NCBI GenBank assembly: GCA_029821755.1
Contig: JALGSV010000002.1
Coordinates: forward strand, 18,591-82,590
Reading direction: 5' to 3'
Length of the DNA: 64,000 bases
Source of the DNA: Candidatus Zipacnadum vermilionense
GTDB lineage: Bacteria; Armatimonadota; Zipacnadia; Zipacnadales; Zipacnadaceae
The notes under the pieces are model-generated. The model saw nothing but the letters and a program-made list of their open reading frames with translations. It was not told the origin of the DNA and made no database searches. Below, one piece after another: positions 1,833 to 63,818 of the stretch. How positions within the stretch are numbered: the stretch's first letter is position 1; each line of letters opens with the position of its first letter. The translations under genes were made by a program, and so were the position numbers.

Positions 1833-1857
1833 CCCCCTCTCCTGCAAGGAGAGGGGG
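1833..1857. terminator. perfect 10-bp stem hairpin (CCCCCTCTCC-TGCAA-GGAGAGGGGG) between convergent genes
   Basis: Inverted repeat read directly from the sequence. It lies between the stop of the 8..1780 gene and the stop of the minus-strand CHAD gene. No T-tract follows, as expected in a high-GC genome. Confidence 0.5.
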
Positions 1858-1924
1858 CAGGGGGTGAGGCTCCGCGGCTGGCGCGAGCAAGTCGCAGGCA
1901 TCGCGGCACTGGTGCGCGGCGACG

Positions 1925-2833
1925 CTAGTCCAATGCATCCAGTAGCGCGCTTCGCCAGGTCTCCTCGCCCAGGACGCCGATGGATTCGCGCGCGGTGACG
2001 TAGAGGGCCTCGCGGCGCTCCTGCAGGGCGCGGAGCGTCTCGCTGGTGCCCTTGAGCCGCCGGGCTTGCGCGTGGAAAAACTCCCTCAGTGCGGCGTCCA
2101 GCACGTCGCAGTCATGGGCCAGGCCCAGCGTCTCCTGGATCCCCGCCACGCTCTGGTACGGCCCGGCCAGCGCTGGCAGGGCCGAGAGCAAGGGCTCCAG
2201 CGTGTATTTGAGGCGCTTGACGACGATACGCAGGCGGTGCAGGGCAGCGGGATCGGCGGTCGCCTGCGCCTCGGCCAGGCGCTGGCCGGTGCGTTCCAGG
2301 CGGGCGTTGACGGCCAGATAGGCGAAGCGGTCTAGCGGCAGACCGCTCAACCGGCCTTTGTGTTTCCCCGTGTCCCGGGCTAGCCGCCGCAGGCGCGCCA
2401 CCAGCCGGTCCGGCCCGGCCAGCCGCTCCCACAGCTCGACCGTCGCCTCATGCGCCGTCAGCCGCTGCTCCTCCCAGGTCGCCACTGCCACCTCCAGGAC
2501 CGGTGCCGCCCCCGACACGGCCTCTGCCAGCTCCCGCGCATGCCCGATCAGCACGTCCCTGTCGCGCGCCCGCCCCAGACCGTCATTCAGATCCTCTACC
2601 CGCGGTAGTACCCGCCGCCGAGCCTTCACCGGCACCAGCCGCTGGAACAACCGTAGCGTTTCCCGTAGCCGCTTCACCGCTACCCGCAGATCATGCAGCC
2701 CCTCCACCTTCCCCGCGCACGCCGGTTTCACAGACGCCAGCACCTCGTCGGTCTTAGCATCTATCAGCTTACCCGCCGCTTTCCCGGCGCGGGTATTTGG
2801 CGTAAGTCCCTTGGGCAAAATAGGCTTGGGCAT
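1925..2833 (-). CDS. CHAD domain-containing protein
   Basis: Repeated CHAD-type helical motifs (LHDLRVAVKRLRETLRLF, LHRLRIVVKRLKYTLEPL). The ORF-track N-terminal extension (to 3028) is read-through of a palindromic repeat (RGAGFLARP translation). The real start is probably ATG at 2833 (MPKPILPKG). Confidence 0.7.
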   Translation of the reverse strand: MPKPILPKGLTPNTRAGKAAGKLIDAKTDEVLASVKPACAGKVEGLHDLRVAVKRLRETLRLFQRLVPVKARRRVLPRVEDLNDGLGRARDRDVLIGHARELAEAVSGAAPVLEVAVATWEEQRLTAHEATVELWERLAGPDRLVARLRRLARDTGKHKGRLSGLPLDRFAYLAVNARLERTGQRLAEAQATADPAALHRLRIVVKRLKYTLEPLLSALPALAGPYQSVAGIQETLGLAHDCDVLDAALREFFHAQARRLKGTSETLRALQERREALYVTARESIGVLGEETWRSALLDALD

Positions 2834-2856
2834 GGTGGTGTAGGGCAGGATCTCTT

Positions 2857-2934
2857 CCGCGTGGGGCGGGCTTTCTAGCCCGCGTTCCCCGCTGGTGTCC
2901 GTCCCCGGGCGGGCTAGAAAGCCCGCCCCACGCG
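2857..2934. repeat. REP-like palindromic repeat, type A pair (CCGCGTGGGGCGGGCTTTCTAGCCCGC ... GCGGGCTAGAAAGCCCGCCCCACGCG)
   Basis: Two inverted copies of the 26-nt unit separated by 27 nt. The same unit recurs at 31027, 33827 (degenerate), 60941 and 63435/63487. Confidence 0.8.
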
Positions 2935-2940
2935 CACGTG

Positions 2941-4326
2941 TCAGCACGTCACGTGCATAAACAGCGCCTTCGGCCCCTCGGCGGCATTGAAGGCTTCGGC
3001 GGCCTCCGGCGTCGGCAACAACTCCCATCGCACGCCCTGCGCGCGCAGGAAGGCCTCGGCGTCTTCGGTCAGGCGCACCATTTCCTGGAAGCCGGCCCCG
3101 ATGATCAGCAGGCTCGGGCCGCCCTTGATTACCTTCGCCAGTTCCTCCGGTCCCAGCACATGGGAGGTCCCGTAACGCCCGCGCGCCAGCTTCTTCTTCC
3201 GCGCTTTCAGCTTCCCCCCGGCTCGGATGTACAGGTCAGTCGCCAACTCCTTGCCGTTCACCACCGCGGCCCCGAAGCTGACGCTGTCCAGGTGCGGGTA
3301 GGTAGGAGCGGGATCCGCTTCGGCGGGGCAGCCTCCCTCCTCCGTCTGCGTCGGGCGGAATGGCTGCCCGCTGGTCTCGGCGTGGGCCAACGCCGCCGCG
3401 CCCAGGGCCACGGCATCGTCGCCCAGTTCCGAGAGCGCGAGGCGCAGCACATCCCGCGAACGCCGCAGGTGGTCGCCCCGTACCTCGGCCTCGATCAGTG
3501 GCATCAGAAAGTCGCCGCAAGCCTCCATCACACCCCCACCCAGGATGACCATATCCGGGTCCACTATATGCCGCAGGCTCACCACGCCCTGCCCCAGGTA
3601 ATGCCCCACGCGGGTCATAATCTCGGTAGTCAACTCATCGCCCGCGCCCAGGGCCTCCGCCAGCATGCCGCTGCCGACCCGCCCGGTTTCCGCGGCTTCC
3701 CGCAGAGACGACGTACGTCCAGCCGCCAAGCCTTCGCGCAGTTCCCGCTCAATGGCCGTACGACTGGCCAGGGCCTCGAAGCAGCCGGCATTCCCACATC
3801 CGCACCGTGGACCGTCGACGCTCACCACCATGTGCCCGATCTCACCCGCCTGGTCCTCAGACCCCGCCAACAACCGCCCGCCCAACACGACGCCGCCGCC
3901 GACGCCCGTGCCGACGAAGATACCCACCACATTCGCCACGCCCCGCCCAGCCCCCCGCCACACCTCCGCCAGCGTCCCCAGGTTCACATCATTACCCAGG
4001 AAGATCGGCACGGGGAAGCGTTCGGCCAGTTGGTCGCGCAGATGGGCATCGGCGTTAGACAGATTAGGCGCGTGCACCACCAGTCCCGCCCGGCTGTCCA
4101 CCACCGCCGGCACCGCCAGCCCCATGCCCGCCACCTCGCCGACGGTAGTGCCCGCCTTTGCCAGGACCTCACTCACCGCGGCCGCGATCTGGTCGCCCAG
4201 GGAGCCCTCTCGCGCGACCCTGAGCTTCTTGCGCCCCAGTATCTCGCCCTCCGCCGTCGCCACTACGGCCAGAATCTTAGTTCCACCCACGTCAACGCCC
4301 AGGTATAGGGACCGGTCTGCACTCAT
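2941..4326 (-). CDS. ROK-family sugar kinase (glucokinase / possible polyphosphate glucokinase) fused to a C-terminal Mth938-like (DUF498) domain
   Basis: N-terminus has LGVDVGGTKI and the ROK zinc motif CGCGNAGCFE. The C-terminal ~140 aa (SLLIIGAGFQEMVRL...EAAEAFNAAEGPKALFMHVTC) resembles the Mth938-like fold. GAGGTG lies 8 nt upstream of ATG 4326. Confidence 0.75.
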   Translation of the reverse strand: MSADRSLYLGVDVGGTKILAVVATAEGEILGRKKLRVAREGSLGDQIAAAVSEVLAKAGTTVGEVAGMGLAVPAVVDSRAGLVVHAPNLSNADAHLRDQLAERFPVPIFLGNDVNLGTLAEVWRGAGRGVANVVGIFVGTGVGGGVVLGGRLLAGSEDQAGEIGHMVVSVDGPRCGCGNAGCFEALASRTAIERELREGLAAGRTSSLREAAETGRVGSGMLAEALGAGDELTTEIMTRVGHYLGQGVVSLRHIVDPDMVILGGGVMEACGDFLMPLIEAEVRGDHLRRSRDVLRLALSELGDDAVALGAAALAHAETSGQPFRPTQTEEGGCPAEADPAPTYPHLDSVSFGAAVVNGKELATDLYIRAGGKLKARKKKLARGRYGTSHVLGPEELAKVIKGGPSLLIIGAGFQEMVRLTEDAEAFLRAQGVRWELLPTPEAAEAFNAAEGPKALFMHVTC

Positions 4327-4390
4327 CTGCTGCACCTCAAGTGCCGCCGGATCGGAAGGATTGCTGGCCTCTAGCGGCTAATGTAACGAC

Positions 4391-9778: not shown

Positions 9779-10840
9779 TTAGGACGAGGCAGGTGGGAAG
9801 ATGATCTGCGTGAAGTTCGCGTAGGCGCTGACTGCCTGGGTGGTATAGACCGCCGCGATGCGGTAGCGATACCGTTCCCCAGAGGTCACGTTGTTGTCGA
9901 AGAAGCTGGTCGCGCCCGGCCCGACCAGCCCTCCGTCGATGAACTGGTAGGGCTGTCCATTCACGGAGCGTTGGATCTGATAGCGAAGCAAGGTCAGGTC
10001 CCCTACCTGTGGCGCCCGCCAGGTCAACTGAATGCCGCCCGTCTGTACCACCAGGGATACCGGGACCGGAGGCAAGGCCCCCTGCGGAGCCCTGTTATCG
10101 CTCTTGGCGCCGCTGATCACGAGAGCGAGCAGGCCGACGACCAGAACCGCGGCAATCCAAGAGGTATTGCGCTTGCGCGAGGGCGCTTTCGGCGCCGTCG
10201 CCTCTTCTCCGGCGATGGCCCGCGCCACCTGCCCCACGGCCTCCCGGACCGCCTCCTTAATGAGCGGCTGGTCGGAGCCGGCGTACTGCGTCACCAGCCG
10301 CGATTCCCCTACTACCTTGAAGGTCCGCTCCGAGGTCGGCGTAGCCGAGGCCTCGCCAGTCTGCGTGTTGAAGTTGGCCCCCACGGCGTACAGCTCCCCG
10401 GCCAGGCTGATCTTCGCTTGCTTGGGATACTCGGTGATGACCAGGATCTCTACAGTGACTTGCAGGACGGCGTCAGCCCCCAGCGCGTGCCCGATCACCA
10501 CGGCTGCCGAGGGGCTCGGCGGGGCAGTCTCCACCTGCGCGGGCAACACCCGACCCTCCGATATGGCGCGGCGCACTAGCGGGGAAGTAGCACTGAAATC
10601 TAGCCCGGCCAAGCCCTGCTTGCCGGTGATGCCCAGGACCAGGTCGTCCGAGATCCACCTGGACAGCCGCGCGTCGCCCCGGCCGCTGTGATCGGATACC
10701 GGCAGCACCAGTATCTTACGCGGCCCCTCCTCCTGCGCCCGCACCGGCCCGGCTGCAACCGGTACCAGCGTGGCGATGAACGCTGCCATCAGTAGCCAAT
10801 ATAGGGTGCGGCACAGCCTGCTTCTTAGAATTACGGTCAT
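9779..10840 (-). CDS. single-pass membrane protein: periplasmic LpoB/TolB-N/CsgG-like N-domain, TM helix, C-terminal fibronectin type III domain
   Basis: Signal peptide, ILVLPVSDHSG...LGADAVLQVTVE pattern, TM helix WIAAVLVVGLLALVI, FN3-like tail. Paralog of the 18784..20670 gene. Confidence 0.5.
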   Translation of the reverse strand: MTVILRSRLCRTLYWLLMAAFIATLVPVAAGPVRAQEEGPRKILVLPVSDHSGRGDARLSRWISDDLVLGITGKQGLAGLDFSATSPLVRRAISEGRVLPAQVETAPPSPSAAVVIGHALGADAVLQVTVEILVITEYPKQAKISLAGELYAVGANFNTQTGEASATPTSERTFKVVGESRLVTQYAGSDQPLIKEAVREAVGQVARAIAGEEATAPKAPSRKRNTSWIAAVLVVGLLALVISGAKSDNRAPQGALPPVPVSLVVQTGGIQLTWRAPQVGDLTLLRYQIQRSVNGQPYQFIDGGLVGPGATSFFDNNVTSGERYRYRIAAVYTTQAVSAYANFTQIIFPPASS

Positions 10841-11193: not shown

Positions 11194-14064
11194 TTACCGC
11201 GTCACCTCGAAGCTGGTGACCAAGCTGTTGGCCTGGCCGCTCTCCGGAGAGCGCGCAGTGATCTGGCACAGGTAGCGCCCGGACGGCACCCGGGTCCCGC
11301 TATCGCTCCGGGCGTTCCATAGTACGGTGTTGACCCCTGCGGTCCCCACCTGCCCGATGCTCACGCGGCGGATGACCACGCCGGCGATGTTACGGATCAC
11401 GACGTCCACACTCGCCGACGACGCCAGCGCATAAGTGAGAGCGAGTTGCCCCCCCGGCGCGGCCTGCGCTTGGACGCTCGTAAGCAAAGCGGCCGCCGAT
11501 CCCCGCGGCTGCGCCACTATCTTGAACAGCCGGCTTCCCTCTTCCATCATCTGGAAGGAATACGCCGCCGTTGTGCGCATGTAGCACCGCGTGCCACTGG
11601 CCACATCCTCCAGGATCAGCGTGTACTTCTCCGGCACCGCCGACAGGTCCGGCCAGGCCACGGCCAGATTGCGCTGGGCGCCGGCGGAGGTAACCTGCAG
11701 GTACCAGGTCTTCTCATTGCCGTCGTCGGCCTTAAGGTCCACCATGCGCTGCTCTCCGCCGCCTCCGGCGGAGACGAAGGCCGCCTGCAGACCCGTGCCG
11801 AAGGGCGAGGGCGGTGCGAGCAGATCCCGAGCATCCGCCCCATCCTTGGCCTCGCGTGCCACCCCGAAGGCCCGCACCATCGTCGCCGCACCTCCACCGC
11901 TGACGGTGATCCCCGCCCGCCAGCCGTTGGCCGCTGGGCTCACCTGGGCTATCGGAGCCGCGCTTACGCCCACCGCACTGGGCGGCGGCACCAGCAACTC
12001 GGTATCGTCATACGCCAAGATCCAGTAGCCCACGAACGGGTCCAGCCGTACCTTGGCTAACTGCTCCTCCCACCCATACTGCCTCGTCATCGGGTCGTAA
12101 TCAAACACCGTAGGCTGCAGCAGCGCCCGGCCGATCGCCTCCGCCATGGTCAACTGCCCACTGTCGGAGCTGATCACCTGCATGTCCCGCAGGTAAACTG
12201 GCAGGATGAACGGGTTCCCGATCTGATTCCAGCCCTTGGTCAGCGAGATGCTGACCGACGTGAGGCTCGGCACCGGCTGGGCGTCCGCCGGCAGCACGAT
12301 CTGCTGCTGCGCCCGGTTTAGTAGCCAGTACCCCTTCCCCACCGCCACGTTGGTCACAAAGGGGTTGGGGAACCAGCGATAGATGAGCGACAGCGGGTCC
12401 CAGCGAATCAGCGCTCCGAGTTGTCCCGGCTGCAACCCGCCCAGGCTCTGGAAAACGTGTTCCGCGTCGCTGTTGGTGAACTCGTAGGGGATGGAGATCA
12501 TCTCCAGCCCGTCGGGTGAAGGCCGCGGATTGATCACTGGGACCGAGGGTATGGTGATGGTCCGGTCCACCGCGCGCCCCCGGGGTCCGGTCAAACCCAC
12601 CGTCACTACTCCCGGCCGCGCCCCGCTGGCGCTGACATTCCAGACTGCCCCCACGAACCCGTCCCGCGGGATCGCCCCGAAGGCCTGGGTTTGCGGCTGC
12701 GTATCCGGTGACAGGGTCAACCCCTCCGGCAGCCTGATGCTCGCGCTGGTCCCCGCCAGGGCGGATGCGCCGAAGTTGTCCACGAAAATCCCCATCGGGA
12801 AGGGCGAGCGCCCCTGCCCGTCGGCCAGGTAGCAGCTCTCGACGATGTCCGGAGTCGAGGGATCGTCTCCGGCGGCTTCCTGCAGGCGCTGCGGGCCGTA
12901 GCCCATCGTCGCGAAAGTCGGCTCGTAGTTGGCCGTCGAGGCCCCAAAGGCAAGGTATGTCACGTACCGTCGCGAAGCGCCCGCCGGAAGGTTGAGCTCA
13001 TTCCACTTGACTCCCACACCCCAGTCCTGCCCCACGATAGACAGCGCCGGGTTCGGGACGAAGTCGAAGTTCGCACCCGCCAGACGCGCCCACATCCCAA
13101 TCTCCACTGCATCCGGCACCCCCGCCGAGGACCCGGCCGTGTTCCGCTGGCGTACCTCCGGCGCATCGAGTACACCTTTTACCGAGATCAGCGGGTTAGT
13201 GGGATCGTCGTACGCCACCCAACCGGTCGGCATCACCCCGGCGCCCCCCGACAGCACGCGCTCGTTGCGGATAGTCGTCCCGTCCGGCAGTATGACCGAC
13301 GTCCCGTCGCGTACGCCGGCCCCGCCGAAGCCGGTGTCGAACCCCCAGCGCACCCCTACACTATGTGGCTCGGCGGTGGTGTTGGTCACGATAAGCTCGA
13401 GCATCAGCGCGTCGCCCACCAGCTCGTAATTGTGGTAGACAGTCAACGAGTCGTCTATCGGGACTTGAAGCGGCACCACCGGCGGCTCCACCGGCGGCTC
13501 CACCGGCGGCTCCAGCGGGTCGTCTATGTCACCTGTGTCGTCTCCGCCTTGATCGGTAAGCGGCACAAGCGAAGTTCCCCTCGCTGCGCGGGTGGTGGCG
13601 GTCAGCGGCACCGGCCAGTAGCTGGGCAGCGTACCGGGATCGGCGGCCGTCTCTGCCTCGTTCATGGCCGCGTACGTATCGAACAGTAGCGCCTCGCCAT
13701 CTTCTACCGTAGCATCCACGGAGAACTGCAAGAAGGAGGTGAAGCCGGTAAAGTCGTTCGTATCGTTGAACGCCTTGCTGGCGATAGCCACGTCCTCATC
13801 GCCGGTCCGAGTGGGGTCGCCCCCCCGGGGGGCGAGCCGTCCCGTCAGCAATTGGAACCGGCCCGCCGGCCGAACCCAGAAGTCAGTCCCCACGGACACC
13901 ACTTGCGGTGCGCCGATCTGCATCCGCATTAGTCCGCCGGGCTGGGAGATGTCCAGCATCGACTGGGCCGCGGCCGGGCCCGACAGCGCCACTGCCGCGA
14001 AAGTGCAGACCAGGGCCATCACACCTGCGATGAGCATCTTCTTCGATATAAGGCTACAGTGCAC
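11194..14064 (-). CDS. giant secreted protein (956 aa) with shared C-terminal modules and FlgD-Ig/T9SS-like C-terminal domain
   Basis: Signal peptide, Pro-rich linker (PVEPPVEPPV). A C-terminal ~450-aa region is shared with the 14098 and 20934 gene products, including module A (SIPYEF...RW.P..Y..P...GYWL) and the CTD ...RNIAGVVIRRV...WNARSDSGTRVPSGRYLCQITAR. Confidence 0.6.
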   Translation of the reverse strand: MHCSLISKKMLIAGVMALVCTFAAVALSGPAAAQSMLDISQPGGLMRMQIGAPQVVSVGTDFWVRPAGRFQLLTGRLAPRGGDPTRTGDEDVAIASKAFNDTNDFTGFTSFLQFSVDATVEDGEALLFDTYAAMNEAETAADPGTLPSYWPVPLTATTRAARGTSLVPLTDQGGDDTGDIDDPLEPPVEPPVEPPVVPLQVPIDDSLTVYHNYELVGDALMLELIVTNTTAEPHSVGVRWGFDTGFGGAGVRDGTSVILPDGTTIRNERVLSGGAGVMPTGWVAYDDPTNPLISVKGVLDAPEVRQRNTAGSSAGVPDAVEIGMWARLAGANFDFVPNPALSIVGQDWGVGVKWNELNLPAGASRRYVTYLAFGASTANYEPTFATMGYGPQRLQEAAGDDPSTPDIVESCYLADGQGRSPFPMGIFVDNFGASALAGTSASIRLPEGLTLSPDTQPQTQAFGAIPRDGFVGAVWNVSASGARPGVVTVGLTGPRGRAVDRTITIPSVPVINPRPSPDGLEMISIPYEFTNSDAEHVFQSLGGLQPGQLGALIRWDPLSLIYRWFPNPFVTNVAVGKGYWLLNRAQQQIVLPADAQPVPSLTSVSISLTKGWNQIGNPFILPVYLRDMQVISSDSGQLTMAEAIGRALLQPTVFDYDPMTRQYGWEEQLAKVRLDPFVGYWILAYDDTELLVPPPSAVGVSAAPIAQVSPAANGWRAGITVSGGGAATMVRAFGVAREAKDGADARDLLAPPSPFGTGLQAAFVSAGGGGEQRMVDLKADDGNEKTWYLQVTSAGAQRNLAVAWPDLSAVPEKYTLILEDVASGTRCYMRTTAAYSFQMMEEGSRLFKIVAQPRGSAAALLTSVQAQAAPGGQLALTYALASSASVDVVIRNIAGVVIRRVSIGQVGTAGVNTVLWNARSDSGTRVPSGRYLCQITARSPESGQANSLVTSFEVTR

Positions 14065-14097: not shown

Positions 14098-17000
14098 TTA
14101 GGGGAATACCTCGAAGGGCCGGATGGCTTGCACCGTCTGGCCCTTGTCCGTCCGGGCCGTCAGGCGCACCACGTAGCGCCCTGCCGGCACCTTGCTGCCG
14201 CGATCGCTGCGGCCGTTCCACACCAGCAACTCCACCGCTCCCCCCGCCGTGAGCTGGGGGCTGAACTGCTTGATGAGCAACCCCGAGATGTTGCGGATCT
14301 CCGCTGTCACCTCGGCAGGCTGCGACAGCGCGTAGGTAAAGGCCACGCCGCCGCCCGTTATCCCTTGCGCGCTGACCCCGCTCAGGCTCAACCCGCCCAC
14401 CGCTTCCGTCGAGGCGATGATCCGTACCCGCCGCGTGCTGCCCTGCGGCCCCGAGTTGAAGCTATAGCCCGCCGAGGTCCGCATGTAGATCTCCTCACCG
14501 GTGTCCAGATCCTCCAGCAGGAGGGTGACCCCGGCGGGGACGGTGGCGTTCAGCTCCGGCCAACGCAAGGACACCTCGGAGTTGGGCTGGGCGCAGGCGA
14601 TCTCCATATCCCATTCCTGCCGCCCCGAAGCGGGTCTAACTATCTGCGCGTAGTACGCCGACTCGTCGCCCCAGTCCCTCTCCACCAGCGCTGCACGCAG
14701 GCTGCTATCCACCGCCGGCGGCTTCCCCACAGCCCAGAAGGGGCTGTACGCGGCCGTCGCCTTGGTGTTCATGCCGATGTAGTTGCATGGTTCGACTACG
14801 CCGTTGGCGGTCGCCACCAGTTGTAGCCGCCATCCCTCGCCACCCTCGGTCGGCCGCGGCGTCGCCGTCTGCGTGGCGATCACCGGCGCGTAGATCACCA
14901 GCGTCGTATCCTTGCGCACCCGCAGCCAGTAGCCCTGGAACGGCTCCAACATCGCCGAGAAAGGATCTGCCGAGAATGTATAGTAGCCGCCCGAGGCGGT
15001 GCTGCGGAACCCGAAGAGAACGCCGTCGGTCACCCCGGAACTGATCGCTTCGGCCAGGGTCTCTCGCTTGCCGGCGGTCACGAACTGCACGCTGCCGAAA
15101 TCGACCGGAGTAAGGAAGGGACAGCCGATCATGTTCCAGCCCCGCGGCTCGCGGCTTCCCATGAGTAAGTTGATGTCGTACTGCGTCAGCCCCGCGACCG
15201 GAGCCCCGGTGATGTTGAGAGTCGTCGCCCGCGGCAGGCGCACAAAATAACCTATTCCCGCCGGCGGTTGGGGCACAACCTGTGCTGGCCCCGATGCGTC
15301 CGGCGGGTCGAAGGTCGCGTAGGGGTCGGGGTACAGGTGATACTGAGTGTCCCCCGGCCACCAGCGCGCCAGCCGGACCTCCTCGCTGGATAGCCCGAAC
15401 ACCTGGCTGGGGTCAGGGAAGCTGCCCGGCGCGTAGGTGTAGGGCAGCGAGAACAAGTGGATGCCCGCGTCCATCCTGGGCAGGGCCACCCGGAAATTGG
15501 ACAGCGCGGTCACCGACCGGTTGCCGTCCTGGTCCGCCACCGAAAGTGTGAGCTGATGGCTGGCCAGGGTTAGCGACGTCGTTACCTGGAAGGTGAGCAC
15601 GCCGCTAGTCGCGTCGAAACTGTAACCGGTGAGCTGCCGGCCATCGATCGCCAGCAGAATGCTGGCGGGGTCGATCCCGGTGCCGGTGTCGATGAGGGAG
15701 GCGCGGATCAGCGGCGTCCGGGTGTTGATGGTCGTGCTGTTCTGCGGGAAGATAATGGTCACCGTCGGCAGATCAGTGTCCCGTCCCGCCTGCAAAGTCA
15801 AGCGACCCTCCCCATAGGTGTTGCTGGGCGGAGAGGTGTCGGTTGGCAGCGGCTTGGCCAGCATCAGTATAATACGCCGCAGGTCCGCCCCAGTCCGACT
15901 AGGGTTCTCTGAGTACAGCAGGGCCGCGGCTCCGGCGACATGCGCCGCACTAGCGGACGTGGACAGGAAGGGGGTATAGGCGGCCAGACTGGTCGTCACC
16001 CGGTCCGGCCCCACCATATTCGGCTTGCGCGAGCCACCCACGGTCGGCCCCTGGCCGCTATAGAGCTCAATGTCGTCTATCCCCGGTGCCGGCGGCACCC
16101 CCGCCGTACCCGCGGTTGCCCCCACCGTCAGGGCCCGGGACGACATGGCGGGGATTGGCAGGCTGGTGGCGGCTACCGCCACGCTGACCGGCAGGTTCGC
16201 CGCCGGCGTATACAACTGGAACTTGTCCGGTTGCATCAGATCCGCCCGCACCGCCTTGATCCGTAACTCATGGACTCCCGCCGTGATGACCTGTGCGATC
16301 AGCGTTTCCCGCGGGGGTGTGGCGCCGTTCTGGGACACGCCCGAATCCGCGATCAGGGTCGTGCCCTGCCACAATTGCAGGTTGTAATCCTGCGAGGTAA
16401 CCGCTCCGGCGGTTTCATACCATGATAGAAAGGCCGTAAACTCGCCCGCCGGCAGGTCGAGGCTGACACCGGTATTGGTCTCGATGTCGCAGAAGGTGTC
16501 GCTGTTCACGTCAACAAAGGTTCCCTGCCAGTGGCGCTGGGCCAGGTCTCCCGAAGCCTGCACCCATAGCACCCCGCTGTCGCTCGCCGTGGCCACTGCC
16601 TGCGAGATCATGTCACTACCGTCGAAGGGCCCGTCGACCGTCCCCACGGTGTTGACGACAGCGGTATACCGGTTCGTAGCTACGTAGTTGATCGCCTGCC
16701 GCAGGGAGAGCGCGGTGTCGACCGCGATGAGGATGAAGTTAGCCTGCGGAGCCATGTCCGCGGCCACCTCCGCGGCGGCCGTCCCCAAGGCATCGGTGCC
16801 CATGGTGCCGTCCGCGCGGAAGGACACTTGGGCGGGCGTAGGGATCTCTGCGTCGACAGCTCCGGCAAACCCCTCCGCGATGATGCCGATATTGGCGCCA
16901 GCCCCCGCGATGCCGAGGGACTGGTATGAGGAGGCGTTCGTTAGCTGTACGCCTTCACTCACGTTGGCCCCGAAGCCAAAGATCGCCTGCTGCGGCCGCA

Positions 17001-28416: not shown

Positions 28417-28509
28417 AGTGCGACGATCCCGTAGCGGCAGGGAGCAGTGGACTGTGACGCGGACATTATACTGAGGATCACGTATTGATGGCAAGAGTCA
28501 ATCCGGAGG

Positions 28510-28578
28510 TGGAACGTGGAAAACGGCCTGATCGAGGGGTTTGTCCCGTCGTTTTCCACGTTCCATCTTCCACGTTCC
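28510..28578. promoter_or_regulatory. candidate operator: 16-nt perfect inverted repeat TGGAACGTGGAAAACG-N23-CGTTTTCCACGTTCCA plus a third half-site TTCCACGTTCCA
   Basis: Read directly from the sequence. Lies 85-150 nt upstream of the GH2 start (28662), in the divergent region shared with the PBP4 gene. Confidence 0.4.
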
Positions 28579-28661
28579 ACTGCTCCCCTTGCCTTCCTTT
28601 CCCCTCTCGGCTATCATCCCGCTTCGTATCCTCACCCGAATTATCCGCTCCCGGAGGACCC

Positions 28662-31019
28662 ATGAAAACCATCCATAAGTCCCAAGTCGTCGAGTACCAG
28701 CTTGGCGCAACTGCTCCGGAGGAGGTCGCCTTCGAGGAAGGCGGCTCCACCCTCCTCACCCCGGCTCGCTGGGTACCGGAACTCGCCAACGGCTGGCCGA
28801 TCATGCTCGACGGATGCTGGGAAGTCACTTACTGGCCCTTCCCCGTCCCGGAGGAATCGCTGCTCGCCGATGCCGGCGCCGAGGTGAAGTGGGACGACAT
28901 CGAGCAGCCTGGCAAGGTCTTCTACTATGAGCCCGACGAGTCGCCCGACCAGATTGAGGGCTGGAATCGCGTCACGCTCGAGCATCTTGACCCGGAGGAC
29001 GGCGCCATGCTCCGCCGCGAGGTCTGCATCCCCGCGGAGTGGACCGGCAAGCGCATCCTGCTCCGCTTCGAGGGGATCTTCCCCGCCGGGCGTATCTACT
29101 TCGACGGCCGGCTCGTGGCCGAGCAGTTCAGCGGCCTGACCCCGATCGAGGTCGACGTCACCGACCTTGCCGTCCCCGGCCAGGTCCACACTGTCGCCGT
29201 CCGTCTCTACCGCCGGCACAACGACGTCCAGCTCGACATGCCCCGCCACGCCTTGGAGTTCTGCGGCCTCTCCCGACACTGCTTCCTCCACGCCGTGGAG
29301 CCGGTGCACCTCACCGAAACCAACGTCCGCCCCACCCTGGCCGACGACTACGAGACCGGGCAGCTCGCGGGCGAGGCGCTCATTAAGAACGCTACCGACC
29401 GAGAAGTCCAGATCGTCATGCAGGCCACCCTCACCGAGGGGAACGGCACCGTGGTGGCCTCCGAGTTCTACAGCGCCACCCTCATGCCCGGCGCCGAGGA
29501 CCCCGTCGGCTTCGACCTTAACGCCGGCCTGGTCCAGGTCTGGAACGCCGAGACCCCCTACCTCTACGACCTGACCCTCCGCCTTACCTGCCCCGGCCAG
29601 GCCAACCAGGAGGTGACCTCACCCGTCGGCTTCCGCCGCTTCGAGATCAAGGACCAGCGCTGCCTACTCAACGGCCAGCCGGTGAAGTTCCGGGGCGTCA
29701 ACCACCTGACCTTCCATCCCGAGCTCGGCATGTGCACCCCCGAGGAGTGGCTACGCGACTGCCTCCTGCTGATGAAGAAGGCCAACGTCAACGCCATCCG
29801 CACCCACTTCTATGGCCCGCCCGAGCTGACCGCTCTGTGCGACGAGTTGGGGCTCTACTTCCTCCAGGAGCTGCCCATCGACTGGGGCCACAGCTTCCTC
29901 GCCGAGCCCGAGAAAGTCGGCCCGGTCCTGCACCGGCTGCACGCCGGGGTACGCCGCGACCGCAACCACCCCTCCATCATGGTCTGGTCCATCGGTAACG
30001 AGAACATGCCCCCGGACGAGGCGCGCTACGAGGTCTTCATGGACCACCTGCGCCTGTTCAACCAGATGGTCAAGCGCACCGACCCTACTCGCCCCACCAT
30101 GTTCCCGCCGCCCGGTCCCGCCGGCCGCATCAAGGGCATCTTCGAGGCGCGCATGAGCGAGATCGCGGACATCCACTACTCCTTCAACCTGGTCCGCGAC
30201 TTCAACGAGACCGACGTAGTATCCGGCAACCCCCGCACCTGGGAGCCGACCTTCGAGCCTGACGCCACCCGTGAGGAGCTACTTCAGGGCCCCTGGCAGG
30301 GCGTCTGGTTCTCCTCCGAGTACGGCATCATCAACCAGCAAGCCGATCTGCTCAACGCGCCGTACGTCTCCATCATCTCCGACGTCATGGAGGACCCGCT
30401 GTCGGGCAAGAACACGCAGCAGGTCTTCCTCGACCGGCTCTCGCGCGAGTGGGGCTACATGCGCGACGACCCCACCTGCTTGGGCGGCGCCTACTTCCCC
30501 TGGATGGCCAGTGGCGCCGGCGACCCTTGGGGCTGGGTCCGCTGGGGCGAGGATGCCGACTGGGGCGTAGTCCTGGGCGACCTGACCCCCAAGTCCAACT
30601 TCTGGGCCATGCGGGTCCTCTTCAGCCCGGTGCGCTTCCCCGAGCGCATCACCTGGAAGCCGGGCGAGACCGAGTTGTGCTTCACCGTCCACAACGACTA
30701 CAACTCGATCAACCTATCCCAGTGCACCTTCCGCACGCAGATGGGCGGCGGCCCCCCGTACATGGCTATGCTGCGCGAGTTCAAGGATGTGACGGTAGAG
30801 TGCCCGCCTGCGAACAGCAGGGAGGTGGTAGTCCCGATCTGGAGTGAGAACACGAAGAACACGCTAGAGAAGGGCAGCCCGGCGGTGGTGCGAGTAACCG
30901 TGATCGACCCGGAGGGCTTCCGCCCCATCATGGCCGACATCCTGATCATTCCCGAGGCCGACCAACCCGGCGAGGAGGCCGTAATCCCGATGGGCCCCGA
31001 CGCCCCGGATGCGATGTAG
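28662..31019 (+). CDS. glycoside hydrolase family 2 (beta-galactosidase/beta-mannosidase-like)
   Basis: GQPVKFRGVNHLTFHP and NHPSIMVWSIGNE (catalytic acid/base NE). GGAGG lies 7 nt upstream of ATG 28662. The ORF-track start 28485 is a read-through extension. Confidence 0.8.
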   Translation: MKTIHKSQVVEYQLGATAPEEVAFEEGGSTLLTPARWVPELANGWPIMLDGCWEVTYWPFPVPEESLLADAGAEVKWDDIEQPGKVFYYEPDESPDQIEGWNRVTLEHLDPEDGAMLRREVCIPAEWTGKRILLRFEGIFPAGRIYFDGRLVAEQFSGLTPIEVDVTDLAVPGQVHTVAVRLYRRHNDVQLDMPRHALEFCGLSRHCFLHAVEPVHLTETNVRPTLADDYETGQLAGEALIKNATDREVQIVMQATLTEGNGTVVASEFYSATLMPGAEDPVGFDLNAGLVQVWNAETPYLYDLTLRLTCPGQANQEVTSPVGFRRFEIKDQRCLLNGQPVKFRGVNHLTFHPELGMCTPEEWLRDCLLLMKKANVNAIRTHFYGPPELTALCDELGLYFLQELPIDWGHSFLAEPEKVGPVLHRLHAGVRRDRNHPSIMVWSIGNENMPPDEARYEVFMDHLRLFNQMVKRTDPTRPTMFPPPGPAGRIKGIFEARMSEIADIHYSFNLVRDFNETDVVSGNPRTWEPTFEPDATREELLQGPWQGVWFSSEYGIINQQADLLNAPYVSIISDVMEDPLSGKNTQQVFLDRLSREWGYMRDDPTCLGGAYFPWMASGAGDPWGWVRWGEDADWGVVLGDLTPKSNFWAMRVLFSPVRFPERITWKPGETELCFTVHNDYNSINLSQCTFRTQMGGGPPYMAMLREFKDVTVECPPANSREVVVPIWSENTKNTLEKGSPAVVRVTVIDPEGFRPIMADILIIPEADQPGEEAVIPMGPDAPDAM

Positions 31020-31026
31020 CTCTGCT

Positions 31027-31055
31027 CCGCGTGGGGCGGGCTTTCTAGCCCGCCC
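31027..31055. repeat. REP-like palindromic repeat type A (single unit), followed at 31064..31085 by type C palindrome GGCACCGGCGTCCCGCCGGTG
   Basis: The same unit occurs at 2857, 60941 and 63435. Confidence 0.7.
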
Positions 31056-31105
31056 TCCCAGTGGCACCGGCGTCCCGCCGGTGTTCCCCTGGCCCCAAAC
31101 AAGAG

Positions 31106-31133
31106 AGAGGGCGGCCCACCCGGGCCGCCCTCT
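31106..31133. terminator. perfect 12-bp stem hairpin AGAGGGCGGCCC-ACCC-GGGCCGCCCTCT, bidirectional terminator between convergent GH2 and GH38-like genes
   Basis: Inverted repeat read from the sequence. A U-rich tail (CTCTTGTTT) follows on the minus-strand reading. Confidence 0.6.
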
Positions 31134-33786: not shown

Positions 33787-33938
33787 TAATAGGCAACTCC
33801 ACTCCGGTTCTGGATACCGAATGCCCCTCCGCGTGGGGCGGACTTCCAGCGCGCCCTCTTTACTGCACCTATCCGCTCTTAGTGGCGCCGCCCCCCACAG
33901 CGGTGTCCCGCCGTCGTCCAGCGGTCCTTCAGTTTCCC

Positions 33939-39866: not shown

Positions 39867-40074
39867 CGACACCGGCCTCCCTTACAGTATGCAAGCAGGC
39901 AGATTGCTCCCGGGGACGCCTAAGCAGATACCACAGCCCGCCGGGGATGTCAACGGACGAGGCCTAGAGAATGGCTCCTCCCGCGTGGAGGGGAGGTATG
40001 CCCCAGCCGGAGGCGGAACAAATGTCTTGACCTCTCCTATAGCTAGACTGACCTCTCTCTCTCGGAGGCCCACC

Positions 40075-44004: not shown

Positions 44005-44060
44005 CCGTCTCCCCACACCCCTCGGGAGAGCAGTGCTCCCCCGGAGGGGCCGCGTCGAGT

Positions 44061-44083
44061 GGGCGCGCGCTGTTTGCGCGCCC
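44061..44083. repeat. GC palindrome GGGCGCGCGCTGTTTGCGCGCCC (type B-like) between convergent genes
   Basis: Read from the sequence; placed where a terminator would be expected. Confidence 0.5.
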
Positions 44084-44110
44084 AGGAGGCCGGCCCCCGC
44101 CTGAGAACTC

Positions 44111-53557: not shown

Positions 53558-53676
53558 GGACGGCTTTCCGGGCTTCGGAGCCGGGACAGCCGCCCGTTCG
53601 GTGCGCGATCAGTTAGCGAACGGGCGTGTGTTGCGGTGAGCACACCGCAAAACGCGCCCCTACAGGAGGGAACATC

Positions 53677-53997: not shown

Positions 53998-54094
53998 CAG
54001 GTGATAGGTGATGGCTGGTAAATGGGGCCCTGAGCCCGCGCCCTAGTCCCTTTCCTTGCCCGCCATTTACCATCAATCACTCCTCCCAAAACCC

Positions 54095-55266: not shown

Positions 55267-55325
55267 AGTCTGCCACGGTTCGCTGATGCGACCCTAGTTG
55301 ACTAGCACAGAAAGTTGCGGCCGCC

Positions 55326-55389: not shown

Positions 55390-55391
55390 CT

Positions 55392-55751
55392 ATGCCCGCC
55401 TACCGCATCTACATCACCGACCTGACGGCCCGCTGTGTGCTCGGCGTCTCCGCGGAGGAGCGGCGCGAGAAGCAGGAGGTCGTCATCAACGTGGCGCTCT
55501 CCGCCGACCTGAGCGCCGCCGCCGCCAGCGACCGCTTTGAGGACACCCTCGACTACCGGACGCTGAAGAAGGTGATGCTGGCGATGGTCGAAAGCTCGGA
55601 CTACTACCTCCTGGAGGCGCTGACCGAGCGGGTCGCGGACCTGTGCCTGCAGGATGCGCGCGTGCAGCGGGTGACAGTAAGGATCGAGAAGCCCTCGGCC
55701 CTGCGCTTTGCAAGGAGCGTGGGGGTGGAGGTGGAGAAGGGGCGATTGTAG
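55392..55751 (+). CDS. folB: dihydroneopterin aldolase
   Basis: YRIYITDL...VLGVSAEERREKQEVVINVAL...DTLDYRTLKKVM...LLEALTERVADLCL...KPSALRFARSVGVEVE matches the FolB family pattern. Confidence 0.8.
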   Translation: MPAYRIYITDLTARCVLGVSAEERREKQEVVINVALSADLSAAAASDRFEDTLDYRTLKKVMLAMVESSDYYLLEALTERVADLCLQDARVQRVTVRIEKPSALRFARSVGVEVEKGRL

Positions 55752-55776
55752 GGCGCGGGCTCGTACCGCGCCCTAC
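55748..55776. repeat. REP-like palindrome type B GTAGGGCGCGGGCTCGTACCGCGCCCTAC between folB and folK
   Basis: 10-bp stem. A related unit occurs at 60993 and a variant at 63398. Confidence 0.7.
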
Positions 55777-55795
55777 AGCGGAGGGAGACGCCCCT

Positions 55796-56852: not shown

Positions 56853-56918
56853 CCGGCGGTGCGCACCCGCACCTGCGGCTTGCAGGTATCGGCGGGAGAG
56901 CCGGAGCAATACTCTTCT

Positions 56919-60936: not shown

Positions 60937-60940
60937 GATT

Positions 60941-61011
60941 CCGCGTGGGGCGGGCTTTCTAGCCCGCCCTGCGATCCGCATGTTCATCAGACGCGGGCTC
61001 GTACCGCGCCC
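60941..61011. repeat. composite REP-like element: type A unit, conserved spacer CCGCATGTTCAT, type B unit GCGGGCTCGTACCGCGCCC
   Basis: Immediately after the sulfatase stop; the same spacer occurs at 63468. Confidence 0.7.
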
Positions 61012-61096
61012 CGCCAGGAGACCGGTTCACACGCCTAGGCGGTGGCCACCCGGCCGCCGGGCAGCCTCCACTATCTATCTTCCTCGCCACGTCTGC

Positions 61097-63322: not shown

Positions 63323-63397
63323 AGGTCGCGCCCCCTTGCGGGTCTGTGTGTCCTTGTTTCAGCCGATAGGACACCCCAGGGGGCAAAAGTGTTCCGC

Positions 63398-63514
63398 GTA
63401 GGGCGCGAGCGCGTGCCGCGCCCTCCCCGCCTTTTCCGCGTGGGGCGGGCTTCCAGCCCGCCACGGGAGCCGCATGTTCATGGGAGGGCGGGCTGGAAGC
63501 CCGCCCCACGCGGA
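63398..63514. repeat. REP-like cluster: type B variant (GTAGGGCGCGAGCGCGTGCCGCGCCCTCC) plus inverted type A pair with CTTCCAG variant and conserved CCGCATGTTCAT spacer
   Basis: Read from the sequence; its translation produces the GRAGWKPAP peptides seen in spurious ORFs. Confidence 0.75.
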
Positions 63515-63818
63515 GGAGAAGAACGACTTTCTGAACACAACCCGAGCCCGCGCTCTACAGAAGCGGAGCTACTCCCTACCCTCCAACAGCCCCGTGAACT
63601 GCGGCAGATACGGCGACCCGCCATGCCCCGCCTCCGGGTCCAGAAGGAAATACTTGTCCGGCCAGGTGATGGCGTTCGCCGCGGCGGTCATGCCGGCGGA
63701 CCTCCCCTCCCCCGGGCTTGCCGTGGTGCGGCGGCCCCGCCACCGTCGTGGCCGACAACTGCAACACCGCAGTTTCCTTTTACATAATCAGAGCTACATT
63801 ACCGCCAAACGTGGGCAC

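What the first reader, a model, noticed from the sequence alone, without database searches (positions are those of the whole stretch)
2857..2934. GC-rich REP-like palindromic repeat family (type A CCGCGTGGGGCGGGCTTTCTAGCCCGCCC), at six or more intergenic loci, with a conserved spacer
The same 26-29-nt unit appears singly (31027), as inverted pairs (2857..2934; 63435..63514), degenerate (33827) and composite with a second palindrome family (60941..61011). The spacer CCGCATGTTCAT is conserved between two copies, which argues for a structured mobile or regulatory element rather than chance palindromes. Copies sit at gene ends. When translated they create false N-terminal extensions (RGAGFLARP, GRAGWKPAP) in at least four ORF-track entries.
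Basis: seen in the sequence. Interest (0 to 1): 0.5.

Follow-up and report, generated by a model that had tools for sequence, protein, structure and literature searches.

The report
REP/REPIN palindromic repeats, RAYT-type
The GC-rich palindromes are real and are an ordinary bacterial REP/REPIN family: short intergenic hairpin repeats that, in related metagenome contigs, bracket the tyrosine transposase (RAYT) gene thought to copy them.

Summary
The unit is (Y)CCGCGTGG + an 8-9 bp stem GGCGGGCT/AGCCCGCC with a 3-4 nt loop. It occurs 7 times at 5 intergenic loci, not "six or more"; 0.02 matches are expected by chance. There are two heads-out inverted doublets (2855-2937, 63434-63515), one A+E composite (31025-31083), one degenerate single (33827-33858) and one A+B hybrid (60939-61012). 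The 12-nt spacer piece CCGCATGTTCAT is shared by 60976-60987 and 63470-63481. The anatomy matches REP/REPIN elements: a GT[AG]G head directly 5' of a GC hairpin, heads-out doublets with a 24-25 nt spacer, and strictly extragenic positions. In metagenome contigs carrying the same unit, a RAYT gene (NCBIfam REP_Tyr_transpos 95.5 bits, cutoff 80; HUH and catalytic Tyr conserved) is bracketed by two inverted type A units (L084). A second RAYT starts 25 nt after a type A unit in a relative of the window's organism (L050). Insertion sites differ between the window and that relative, which fits turnover. The window has no RAYT and its genome could not be retrieved. The copies are not terminators, not in Rfam, and lack target-site duplications. 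Verdict: a new member of a known kind, probably in Armatimonadota. Interest is low to moderate.

The parts
2855..2887 (+). Type A REP unit, left arm of doublet 1. Head TTCCGCGTGG, then stem GGCGGGCT, loop TTCT, stem AGCCCGC(g).
   Evidence: CM R1 43.2 bits; sequence; 24 nt upstream of the CHAD gene start codon at 2831-2833.
2888..2904 (.). Central part of the doublet 1 spacer. The spacer is 25 nt between the 26-nt perfect arms 2858-2883 and 2909-2934.
   Evidence: the repeat finder I15. As ssDNA the doublet folds into one long hairpin, -41.7 kcal/mol, z = -9.1.
2905..2937 (-). Type A REP unit, right arm of doublet 1, head pointing outward. It ends 6 nt from the stop codon (2941-2943) of the ROK/DUF498 gene.
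   Evidence: CM R1 46.0 bits; Pfam on the flanking genes.
31025..31057 (+). Type A REP unit. Its CGCG head begins 8 nt after the stop codon of the GH2 gene 28485..31019, between convergent genes.
   Evidence: CM 48.9 bits; hairpin -12.9 kcal/mol, z = -5.0; Pfam.
31061..31083 (+). Type E palindrome GTGGCACCGGCGTCCCGCCGGTG. It is abutted to the type A unit, making an A+E composite.
   Evidence: Hairpin scan. The same A+E neighbourhood recurs in L017, L026, L038 and L054.
33827..33858 (+). Degenerate type A unit with two stem mismatches, so the hairpin is lost. It lies between the ABC-2 permease stop (33939) and the GH38 start (33786).
   Evidence: CM 41.4 bits; no stable fold, z = 0.06.
60939..60971 (+). 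Type A unit, left arm of a hybrid A+B dimer. Its head begins 5 nt after the sulfatase stop codon (60934-60936).
   Evidence: CM 49.1 bits; sequence; Pfam.
60976..60987 (+). Spacer piece CCGCATGTTCAT, identical to 63470-63481.
   Evidence: (D8).
60986..61012 (+). Type B palindrome with a degenerate head. It occupies the position of the right arm of the doublet.
   Evidence: 2 mismatches to the type B core; aligns in register with the right arm of the doublets.
63392..63425 (+). Type B palindrome carrying the same head as type A (TTCCGCGTAGGGCGCG...).
   Evidence: weak CM R1 hit of 15.4 bits.
63434..63465 (+). Type A unit, left arm of doublet 2.
   Evidence: CM 48.5 bits.
63466..63483 (.). Central part of the doublet 2 spacer. 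The spacer is 24 nt between the 28-nt perfect arms 63435-63462 and 63487-63514. Its consensus is shared with non-orthologous doublets in L021, L026 and L076.
   Evidence: the repeat finder I8; alignment A3; long hairpin -46.8 kcal/mol, z = -10.3.
63484..63515 (-). Type A unit, right arm of doublet 2. The whole doublet is orthologous to L072 3842-3923.
   Evidence: CM 50.0 bits; 88.5% identity over 131 nt including unique flank.
55745..55778 (.). Type B palindrome tGTAGGGCGCG-ggctcgtac-CGCGCCCTACa, GTAG...CTAC tagged on both strands.
   Evidence: -16.3 kcal/mol, z = -6.7. The orthologous intergenic spacer in L054 carries a different palindrome.

Best explanation
These are REP (repetitive extragenic palindrome) elements. 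The two inverted pairs are REPIN-type doublets: non-autonomous elements dispersed by a REP-associated tyrosine (HUH/Y1) transposase, RAYT, encoded elsewhere in the genome.

Shown here:
- A 26-33 nt unit made of a conserved head (Y)CCGCGTGG, with GTGG abutting the stem, and an 8-9 bp GC hairpin.
- Seven copies, all intergenic.
- Doublets always have heads outward and a 24-25 nt spacer.
- The same unit brackets, in inverted orientation, a bona fide RAYT gene in a related metagenome contig, and directly precedes another RAYT in a relative of the window's organism.
- Copy positions differ between the window and that relative.

Inferred from the E. coli TnpA_REP work (Messing 2012, PMC3479197) and the REPIN model (Bertels & Rainey 2011, PMC3116915):
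- When the DNA is single-stranded, for example at the replication fork, the unit folds into a hairpin.
- The RAYT binds the hairpin together with the GT[AG]G head, which acts as a guide sequence. It then cleaves and rejoins ssDNA through a 5'-phosphotyrosine intermediate.
- The doublet plus its spacer is the unit that gets copied to new intergenic sites.
- Singles, the degenerate copy and the A+B or A+E hybrids are decayed or recombined doublets.

Secondary host-level effects are possible but untested. Candidates are mRNA 3'-end protection, intercistronic punctuation, and translation effects of hairpins placed 5-8 nt after stop codons.
For: (1) Over-representation: 4 core matches against 0.02 expected, and 7 full-length CM hits with nothing in between.

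(2) All copies fall in the roughly 8-10% non-coding DNA, between Pfam-verified genes.

(3) The GTGG head directly 5' of the stem is present in all 7 copies. GTAG variants occur in L026 and in type B. Nunvar 2010 defines REPs by a GT(A/G)G head plus palindrome and lists near-identical REPs, e.g. H. influenzae GTAGGGTGGGCTTCAGCCCACC.

(4) Across the window and 83 public loci, all 14 spaced inverted pairs are heads-out and none is tails-out. The modal gap of 17-19 nt between CM hits corresponds to a 24-25 nt spacer. Spacer length is constant, and its sequence is partly conserved among non-orthologous doublets. Di Nocera 2013 reports that heads-out dimers typically have conserved spacers.

(5) The doublets fold as single long ssDNA hairpins, z about -9 to -10.

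(6) In L084, RAYT P0001 (10001-10501) is flanked by type A units at 9947-9978(+) and 10512-10543(-), 22 nt and 10 nt from the ORF. P0001 scores 95.5 bits on NCBIfam NF047646 REP_Tyr_transpos against a cutoff of 80. It aligns to E. coli TnpA_REP (4ER8) with HUH, Tyr115 and Asn119 conserved.

(7) In L050, from the FWPV01 assembly that holds a 75-81% identical syntenic relative of the window, an 81%-identical RAYT starts 25 nt after a type A unit.

(8) More distant RAYT relatives (57-62% identity) are flanked by inverted REPs with other stems; around P0004 the head is the same CGCGTAGG. This is the RAYT/REP co-variation expected of cognate pairs.

(9) Turnover: L054 carries type A units at two sites where the window has none. 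The type B site at window 55748 holds a different palindrome in L054. The 63434 doublet, in contrast, is conserved in L072.

(10) A few compensatory stem changes occur in copies that were not ascertained by the exact-match pattern: GC to CG four times and GC to AU three times.
Against: - No RAYT gene lies in the 64-kb window (tblastn).
- The window's own genome could not be retrieved, so the cognate RAYT and genome-wide copy number are unverified for this organism.
- Transposition itself was not observed. The presence/absence differences could be deletions.
- Covariation evidence is thin, because most public copies were found with an exact-stem pattern.
- The two doublets in the window have unrelated spacers, so recent copying of one master doublet within this window is not shown.
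- The L046 RAYT is flanked by variant units in direct rather than inverted orientation.
Confidence: 0.85

Rival explanations
1. The hairpins are primarily host regulatory RNA elements, not mobile DNA. They would act as 3'-UTR stabilisers against exonucleases, intercistronic punctuation or partial terminators, or translation modulators when placed just after stop codons.
For: Two units begin 5 and 8 nt after the stop codons of plus-strand genes and lie on the transcribed strand (31025, 60939). In L050 the unit also follows a stop codon by about 10 nt. Doublet 1 lies between two co-directional genes. REPs are reported to have such roles in E. coli (abstracts of PMC3733652 and PMC3479197; the translation effect of a REP within about 15 nt of a stop codon is from my own recollection of Liang, Rudd & Deutscher 2015, not checked here).
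Against: - No U-tract follows any intact copy, and the terminator scan of 55000-64000 flags none of them.
- A separate terminator-like hairpin with a T-run exists at 31106-31133, beside the REP.
- Orientation relative to transcription is not consistent: 33827 is antisense to both neighbouring genes.
- There are no gathering-score Rfam hits, and only meaningless sub-threshold long-hairpin matches otherwise.
- A regulatory role does not explain the conserved unpaired head, the heads-out rule, or the bracketing of RAYT genes.
- This rival is compatible with the main explanation as a secondary effect.
Confidence: 0.08
2. The doublets are MITEs, internally deleted derivatives of a conventional DDE-transposase insertion sequence, and the 26-28 nt arms are its terminal inverted repeats.
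For: They have perfect inverted arms with a short non-coding core, which is superficially MITE-like.
Against: - No target-site duplication flanks either doublet: the left/right flanks are GGATCTCT / CACGTGTC and CGCCTTTT / GGAGAAGA.
- Each arm is itself a hairpin, and single arms occur on their own.
- The only transposase gene found bracketed by the arms is an HUH/Y1 RAYT, not a DDE enzyme.
- There is no match in 72,556 plasmid records.
Confidence: 0.03
3. They are operator or binding sites for a DNA-binding protein, such as a regulator or nucleoid protein, kept by selection at specific promoters.
For: They are palindromic and intergenic. Three loci lie upstream of gene starts (2855, 33827, 63434).
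Against: - The flanking genes are functionally unrelated: CHAD, GH38, VIT-VWA, GH2 and sulfatase.
- Two loci lie between convergent gene ends, where there is no promoter.
- Sites are not conserved between the window and its relative.
- The same unit occurs in MAGs of different classes and phyla.
Confidence: 0.03
4. They are chance GC-rich palindromes in a 66.5% GC genome.
For: High GC content raises the background of GC palindromes. Several unrelated 8-bp hairpins do occur inside genes.
Against: No dinucleotide-preserving shuffle reached the observed count, with 0.02 expected. The 9-nt unpaired head and the loop are conserved as well as the stem.
Confidence: 0.005

Closest known systems
REP elements with GT[AG]G head and their RAYTs (Nunvar et al. 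2010, PMC2817692; E. coli TnpA_REP/YafM, Messing et al. 2012, PMC3479197)
   Same: - A 20-40 nt GC-rich palindrome with an unpaired GT(A/G)G head 5' of the stem.
- Extragenic and multi-copy.
- The RAYT gene is bracketed by two inverted units lying within a few nt of the ORF.
- The RAYT has HUH and a catalytic Tyr.
- Even the stem resembles listed REPs: H. influenzae GTAGGGTGGGCTTCAGCCCACC against GTGGGGCGGGCTTCCAGCCCGCC here.
   Different: - The conserved head is longer here, (Y)CCGCGTGG.
- The stem is perfect, whereas E. coli REPs have a mismatch or bulge.
- The host is apparently Armatimonadota, not Proteobacteria.
- The RAYT shares only weak sequence similarity with E. coli TnpA_REP (35 bits, E = 1e-7), and His123 is not conserved.
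REPINs of Pseudomonas fluorescens SBW25 (Bertels & Rainey 2011, PMC3116915; PMC3337134)
   Same: Two REPs in inverted orientation separated by a short spacer fold into one long hairpin. Singletons look like decayed doublets. The RAYT is flanked by the same sequences.
   Different: - The excess of doublets over singlets, the quasispecies structure and the single-copy status of the RAYT could not be measured without the genome.
- In the pooled sample only about a quarter of units (28 of 122) are in spaced doublets.
GTAG-tagged palindromic repeat super-family (Di Nocera, De Gregorio & Rocco 2013, PMC3733652)
   Same: - Stem-loop tagged at one end by GTAG or GTGG.
- Their 'HH' dimers (tag outside) predominate and tend to have conserved spacers of 20-100 bp.
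- Hybrid dimers form between different families, as with A+B and A+E here.
- Occasional intragenic copies occur, like the one in the L054 HPPK tail.
   Different: That survey covered 8 phyla, and a word search of the paper finds no mention of Armatimonadetes. Assignment of type A to one of its 24 numbered GTAG families was not attempted.
IS200/IS605-family subterminal hairpins and their PATE derivatives
   Same: An ssDNA hairpin plus a 4-nt guide sequence is recognised by an HUH/Y1 transposase, and no target duplication is made.
   Different: The enzyme found here scores above the cutoff for the RAYT equivalog (95.5 bits against 80) and far below the cutoff for IS200. The elements are 80-nt doublets rather than IS ends with distinct left and right hairpins.

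Membership tests
REP (repetitive extragenic palindrome) | Short (about 20-40 nt) palindromic unit able to form a stem-loop | tested here: met
   The unit is 26-33 nt with an 8-9 bp GC stem and a 3-4 nt loop. Fold energy is -12.9 kcal/mol, z = -5.0.
REP (repetitive extragenic palindrome) | Conserved unpaired GT[AG]G tetranucleotide at the 5' foot of the hairpin | tested here: met
   GTGG abuts the stem in 7 of 7 window copies. GTAG occurs in L026 and in type B. Definition taken from PMC2817692.
REP (repetitive extragenic palindrome) | Extragenic location | tested here: met
   All 7 copies lie between Pfam-verified genes. The coding fraction is about 0.9.
REP (repetitive extragenic palindrome) | High copy number genome-wide (typically more than 100) | not testable with these tools
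   Only 64 kb of the genome is available. Density is 7 per 64 kb here and 5 per 14 kb in L084. The source genome was not retrievable.
REPIN | Two REPs in inverted orientation separated by a short spacer, folding as one hairpin | tested here: met
   Doublets at 2855-2937 and 63434-63515 have 26 and 28 nt perfect arms and 25 and 24 nt spacers, with z = -9.1 and -10.3. All 14 spaced inverted pairs in the window plus loci are heads-out.
REPIN | The doublet including its spacer is the replicated unit (same spacer at non-orthologous sites) | tested here: inconclusive
   Spacer length is constant. A shared spacer consensus is seen in window 63434, L021, L026 and L076, and half of it in window 60976-60987. 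However, the two window doublets have unrelated spacers, and the copies come from different genomes.
REPIN | Evidence of mobility (insertion polymorphism between related genomes) | tested here: inconclusive
   L054 has type A units at 2 sites where the window has none, and a different palindrome at the type B site. Insertion cannot be told from deletion, and the two genomes are only 75-81% identical.
REP-RAYT system | [quoted passage not shown] | tested here: met
   Met in related contigs, not in the window. In L084, units at 9947-9978(+) and 10512-10543(-) bracket RAYT 10001-10501. In L050 a unit lies 25 nt before the RAYT start, and the 3' side falls outside the held sequence.
REP-RAYT system | The enzyme is a RAYT: Y1/HUH fold with HUH motif and catalytic Tyr, and RAYT-specific profile above cutoff | tested here: met
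   P0001 scores 95.5 bits on NF047646 (cutoff 80) and P0002 scores 93.2. There is no reportable IS200-model hit for P0001, and P0002 scores only 18.7 bits against a cutoff of 55. In the alignment to 4ER8, HVH aligns with HMH, Y140 with Y115 and N144 with N119.
REP-RAYT system | Cognate RAYT present, usually in single copy, in the same genome as the REPs | not testable with these tools
   There is no RAYT in the window.
Intrinsic (Rho-independent) terminator | GC hairpin immediately followed by a U-tract on the transcribed strand | tested here: not met
   No T-run follows the intact copies, and none is flagged in the scan of 55000-64000.
MITE / IS terminal inverted repeats | Terminal inverted repeats flanked by a direct target-site duplication, with a parent IS encoding a DDE transposase | tested here: not met
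   No duplication is visible at either doublet. The only enclosed gene found is an HUH/Y1 enzyme.
Described RNA families (Rfam 15) | Match at gathering score | tested here: not met
   There are 0 matches in the window. Only sub-threshold hits to eukaryotic long-hairpin families appear at the doublet.

The most novel reading that the evidence does not exclude
The window's lineage, apparently Armatimonadota, may carry a multi-family REPIN-RAYT ecosystem. At least three GT[AG]G-headed families (A, B, E) form hybrid dimers, and the RAYT paralogues or orthologues share a CGCGTRGG guide-like head while their stems diverge. The near-identical type A unit in Thermoanaerobaculia (Acidobacteriota) MAGs would then reflect inter-phylum horizontal transfer of a REPIN-RAYT system. 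That would run against the prevailing view that these systems are inherited almost only vertically. The alternatives are convergence on a RAYT-constrained archetype or MAG binning error.
Probability: 0.12. Interest if true: 0.5.

Novelty: new member of a known kind. Interest (0 to 1): 0.25.

Why it matters
Practically, it explains several artefactual ORF extensions and spurious small ORFs in this GC-rich window (RGAGFLARP, GRAGWKPAP, AWGGLPARP). It also gives annotators a model (head plus hairpin) to mask them.

Biologically, it extends the REP/REPIN-RAYT association to an apparently Armatimonadota lineage. A full-text search of the open-access paper library found no paper mentioning both. The material may suit study of RAYT-REP co-evolution: one conserved head with different stems among 57-81% identical RAYTs, and hybrid A+B and A+E dimers. 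It does not reveal a new kind of element or open a long-standing question.

Tried and rejected
- **Locating the source genome.** The look-up of encoding contigs on three window proteins and on the 100%-identical database protein P0035 found nothing on record. The listing of cluster members gave no accession or name. The genome contigs motif scan hit other MAGs but not the source.
- **RAYT in the window.** Pfam shows that region is thymidylate kinase, so it is a false positive.
- **Known RNA families.** Rfam gave no match at gathering score. At relaxed E-value only sub-threshold long-hairpin (miRNA-precursor-type) matches appeared, judged meaningless.
- **Plasmid-borne IS or MITE.** blastn of the B+doublet region against PLSDB found no match.
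- **Terminator reading.** Rejected for lack of U-tracts.
- **Fuzzy-regex census.** It missed known copies and was replaced by the covariance model.
- **Covariation as proof of structure.** It is only weakly informative, because the public copies were ascertained with an exact-stem pattern.
- **P0002.** This RAYT sits on a 280-kb contig from the same source types (NCBI and JGI) as the window's contig. I considered it as the window genome's own RAYT, but its DNA could not be fetched, so the idea stays speculation.
- **Taxon.** The oxidoreductase search gave mixed named hits at 58-59% identity (Armatimonadota, Nitrospirota). The Armatimonadota assignment therefore rests mainly on the MAGs that share the repeat and is an inference.

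Full report
**1. Observation**

The stretch 2857-2934 is an inverted pair of a GC-rich unit. The arms are 2858-2883 and 2909-2934, 26 nt each, 100% complementary and 25 nt apart. A search for the 22-nt core with up to 3 mismatches finds 4 matches where dinucleotide-preserving shuffles give 0.02.

I built a covariance model (R1) of the head plus hairpin from 28 distinct units and ran it with filters off over all 64 kb. It returns exactly seven full-length copies at 41-50 bits. The next unrelated hit scores 15 bits.

| Copy | Strand | Note |
|---|---|---|
| 2855-2887 | + | left arm, doublet 1 |
| 2905-2937 | - | right arm, doublet 1 |
| 31025-31057 | + | part of A+E composite |
| 33827-33858 | + | degenerate |
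| 60939-60971 | + | part of A+B hybrid |
| 63434-63465 | + | left arm, doublet 2 |
| 63484-63515 | - | right arm, doublet 2 |

That makes five loci, not six or more.

The second family (type B, GTAGGGCGCGGGCTCGTACCGCGCCCTAC) is at 55748, 60986 and 63398. The shared spacer CCGCATGTTCAT is at 60976-60987 and 63470-63481. The artefactual peptides RGAGFLARP and GRAGWKPAP are there. The ORF 1925..3028(-) over-runs the repeat: the real CHAD gene starts at 2833.

**2. Anatomy**

The unit is (Y)CCGCGTGG + GGCGGGCT + a 3-4 nt loop + AGCCCGCC.

- Across 122 copies from the window and public loci, the stem is 8 bp. A ninth pair forms in only about half of the copies.
- The tetranucleotide GTGG always abuts the stem. 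GTAG replaces it in one L026 copy and in type B.
- The type B copy at 63392 carries the same long head, TTCCGCGTAGGG.
- Intact single units fold at -12.9 kcal/mol (z = -5). The degenerate copy at 33827 no longer folds. The doublets fold as one long hairpin at -41.7 and -46.8 kcal/mol (z = -9.1 and -10.3).

**3. Context**

All copies lie between genes confirmed by Pfam.

| Locus | Position relative to genes |
|---|---|
| Doublet 1 | between the stop of a ROK/DUF498 gene (2941) and the start of a CHAD gene (2833), both on the minus strand |
| 31025 | 8 nt after the stop of a GH2 gene, facing the end of a GH38 gene (convergent) |
| 33827 | between an ABC-2 permease stop and the GH38 start |
| 60939 | 5 nt after a sulfatase stop, facing the end of a VIT-VWA gene (convergent) |
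| Type B + doublet 2 | upstream of the VIT-VWA start |

About 90% of the window is coding. The neighbouring genes have nothing in common. None of the intact copies is followed by a T-run, and the terminator scan of 55000-64000 flags none of them. A separate terminator-like hairpin with a T-run sits at 31106-31133. Rfam has no match at gathering score and only meaningless long-hairpin matches below it.

**4. Relatives elsewhere**

An exact-pattern scan found the unit in 9 loci of species-representative genomes. These are Armatimonadia MAGs, a Candidatus Zipacnadia MAG (class of Armatimonadota), Thermoanaerobaculia MAGs and an unclassified MAG. It also found 74 metagenome loci.

The window's own genome was not among them and could not be reached by protein look-ups. 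One assembly, FWPV01, holds a syntenic relative at 75-81% nucleotide identity (L054 against window 52578-59411). Its contig L072 carries the orthologue of doublet 2 with conserved unique flanks.

In the pooled set, all 14 spaced inverted pairs are heads-out and none is tails-out. The modal spacing is the same as in the window. Spacer length is constant at 23-25 nt. A spacer consensus (..GG.AG..GCA..TTCAT.GGAG) is shared by non-orthologous doublets in L021, L026, L076 and window doublet 2, and by the A+B hybrid at 60939.

**5. The transposase**

It pointed to ORFs next to the unit in L046 and L050.

- The L046 ORF (242 aa) passes Pfam Y1_Tnp (26.1 bits against 23). It scores 74 bits on NCBIfam REP_Tyr_transpos, against a cutoff of 80.
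- The L050 ORF starts 25 nt after a type A unit but is cut by the end of the held sequence.
- Its closest database relative, P0001 (81% identity), lies on an ENA contig, L084. There the 166-aa gene (10001-10501) is bracketed by type A units at 9947-9978(+) and 10512-10543(-), heads outward, 22 and 10 nt from the ORF.
- P0001 passes the RAYT equivalog model (95.5 bits against 80) and has no reportable hit to the IS200 model.
- It aligns with E. coli TnpA_REP (PDB 4ER8) with the HUH histidines, the catalytic Tyr115 and Asn119 conserved.
- RAYTs at 57-62% identity are bracketed by inverted REPs with other stems. Around P0004 the head is the same CGCGTAGG.

This is the defining REP-RAYT arrangement of Nunvar et al. 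[quoted passage not shown] Their table even lists closely similar REPs such as GTAGGGTGGGCTTCAGCCCACC. The window itself has no RAYT.

**6. Turnover**

Aligning window 55399-59420 with its relative L054 gives four results:

- The type B site at 55748 holds a different palindrome (CCCTCCCC..GGGGAGGG) in L054.
- L054 has a type A unit in the 3' region of the HPPK gene, where the window (about 56200) has none.
- L054 has a type A unit where the window has a 1.9-kb beta-helix gene.
- Doublet 2, by contrast, is conserved in L072.

This fits gain and loss over time plus some vertical retention. It cannot separate insertion from deletion.

**7. Mechanism**

Shown here: the anatomy, the distribution, and the association with RAYT genes.

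Inferred from E. coli TnpA_REP biochemistry and structure (PMC3479197) and the REPIN model (PMC3116915, PMC3337134, PMC5581495):

- The unit folds in single-stranded DNA.
- The RAYT binds the hairpin and the GT[AG]G head, which acts like the IS200/IS605 guide sequence. It cleaves and rejoins ssDNA through a phosphotyrosine intermediate.
- The doublet with its spacer is the copied unit.
- Singles and hybrids are decay or recombination products.

RNA-level side effects are plausible for the two units placed 5-8 nt after stop codons, but they are untested.

**8. Comparison and novelty**

The element meets every REP/REPIN/RAYT criterion that could be tested. Genome-wide copy number and the presence of the RAYT in this particular genome could not be tested.

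It differs from the textbook cases only in detail. The conserved head is longer, the stem is perfect, the host is different, and several co-resident families (A, B, E, and a non-GTAG family C) form hybrid dimers. Hybrid dimers are already described for Stenotrophomonas (PMC3733652).

A full-text search found no paper linking REPs with Armatimonadota. JGI annotations already name some of these proteins RayT. The verdict is a new member of a known kind, of low to moderate interest.

The most novel reading left open is inter-phylum transfer of the system, suggested by near-identical units in Thermoanaerobaculia MAGs. REP archetypes are similar across distant taxa anyway, and MAG binning errors are not excluded.

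Noticed in passing
window 1833-1874 and 38225-38245: A third palindromic repeat family without a GTAG head (type C): CCCCCTCTCCTGCAAGGAGAGGGGGCAGGGGGTGAGGCT. It is 95-96% identical to L011 9154-9195 (right next to a type A unit) and to L021 1-52. Related CCCTCYCC..GGRGAGGG hairpins occur in 15 of the fetched loci, as well as in the window itself.
   Followed up: partly
window 31061-31083 and 37152-37176: A fourth family (type E), GTGGCACCGGCGTC(C/T)CGCCGGTG, also GTGG-headed. In L017, L026, L038 and L054, and at window 31061, it lies within about 130 nt of a type A unit. This suggests BIME-like mosaics of different REP types.
   Followed up: partly
window 44055-44087: A type-B-like palindrome GAGTGGGCGCGCGCTGTTTGCGCGCCCAGG between convergent gene ends (44004 / 44111). 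It is 87.5% identical over 64 nt to L084 3449-3512.
   Followed up: no
window 31106-31133: A 10-bp GC hairpin AGAGGGCGGC-ccacccgg-GCCGCCCTCT followed by TT, between the convergent GH2 and GH38 genes. It looks like a bidirectional terminator and is distinct from the REP units beside it.
   Followed up: no
L054 2461-2492 (against window ~56200) and L054 1494-1788 (against window 56859-58724): In the relative, a type A unit appears to lie in-frame in the 3' tail of the HPPK gene, read by eye as ..DSAWGGLPARP.. (a possible intragenic REP). The window's 621-aa beta-helix gene is absent from the relative, where a 294-nt spacer with type A and E units sits instead.
   Followed up: partly
L046 850-1700 against L029 2301-2386: The right flanks of these two loci are 92% identical. 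L046 carries a 242-aa RAYT between REP units where L029 has only a REP doublet. This is a RAYT presence/absence polymorphism bounded by REPs. The left flanks beyond about 20 nt are unrelated.
   Followed up: partly
L002, L003, L006 (Thermoanaerobaculia MAGs); L022, L036, L044, L061, L075: A near-identical unit, (ATT)CGCGTGGGGCGGGCTTCAGCCCGCCCC with a shorter loop, occurs in Acidobacteriota MAGs and soil metagenomes, partly as overlapping tandem arrays. It could reflect horizontal transfer, convergence or mis-binning; this was not resolved.
   Followed up: no
window 11194-14064, 14098-17424, 20934-25892 (all minus strand): Three large adjacent or nearby proteins (956, 1108 and 1652 aa) each end in a FlgD Ig-like domain. 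One has a subtilase domain and one has CarboxypepD_reg repeats. Two further giant ORFs (39688-44004, 1438 aa; 48518-52102, 1194 aa) have no Pfam hit at all.
   Followed up: no
window 2941-4335 (-): A ROK-family sugar kinase or regulator is fused to a C-terminal DUF498 domain in one 464-aa ORF.
   Followed up: no
window 63819-63847 and 63882 onward: A near-consensus sigma-70-type promoter (TTGACG-17-TATAAT with TG) lies in an AT-rich patch, just upstream of a plus-strand ORF that runs off the window (MHLTARQREFLGTLVDIYREQ...).
   Followed up: no
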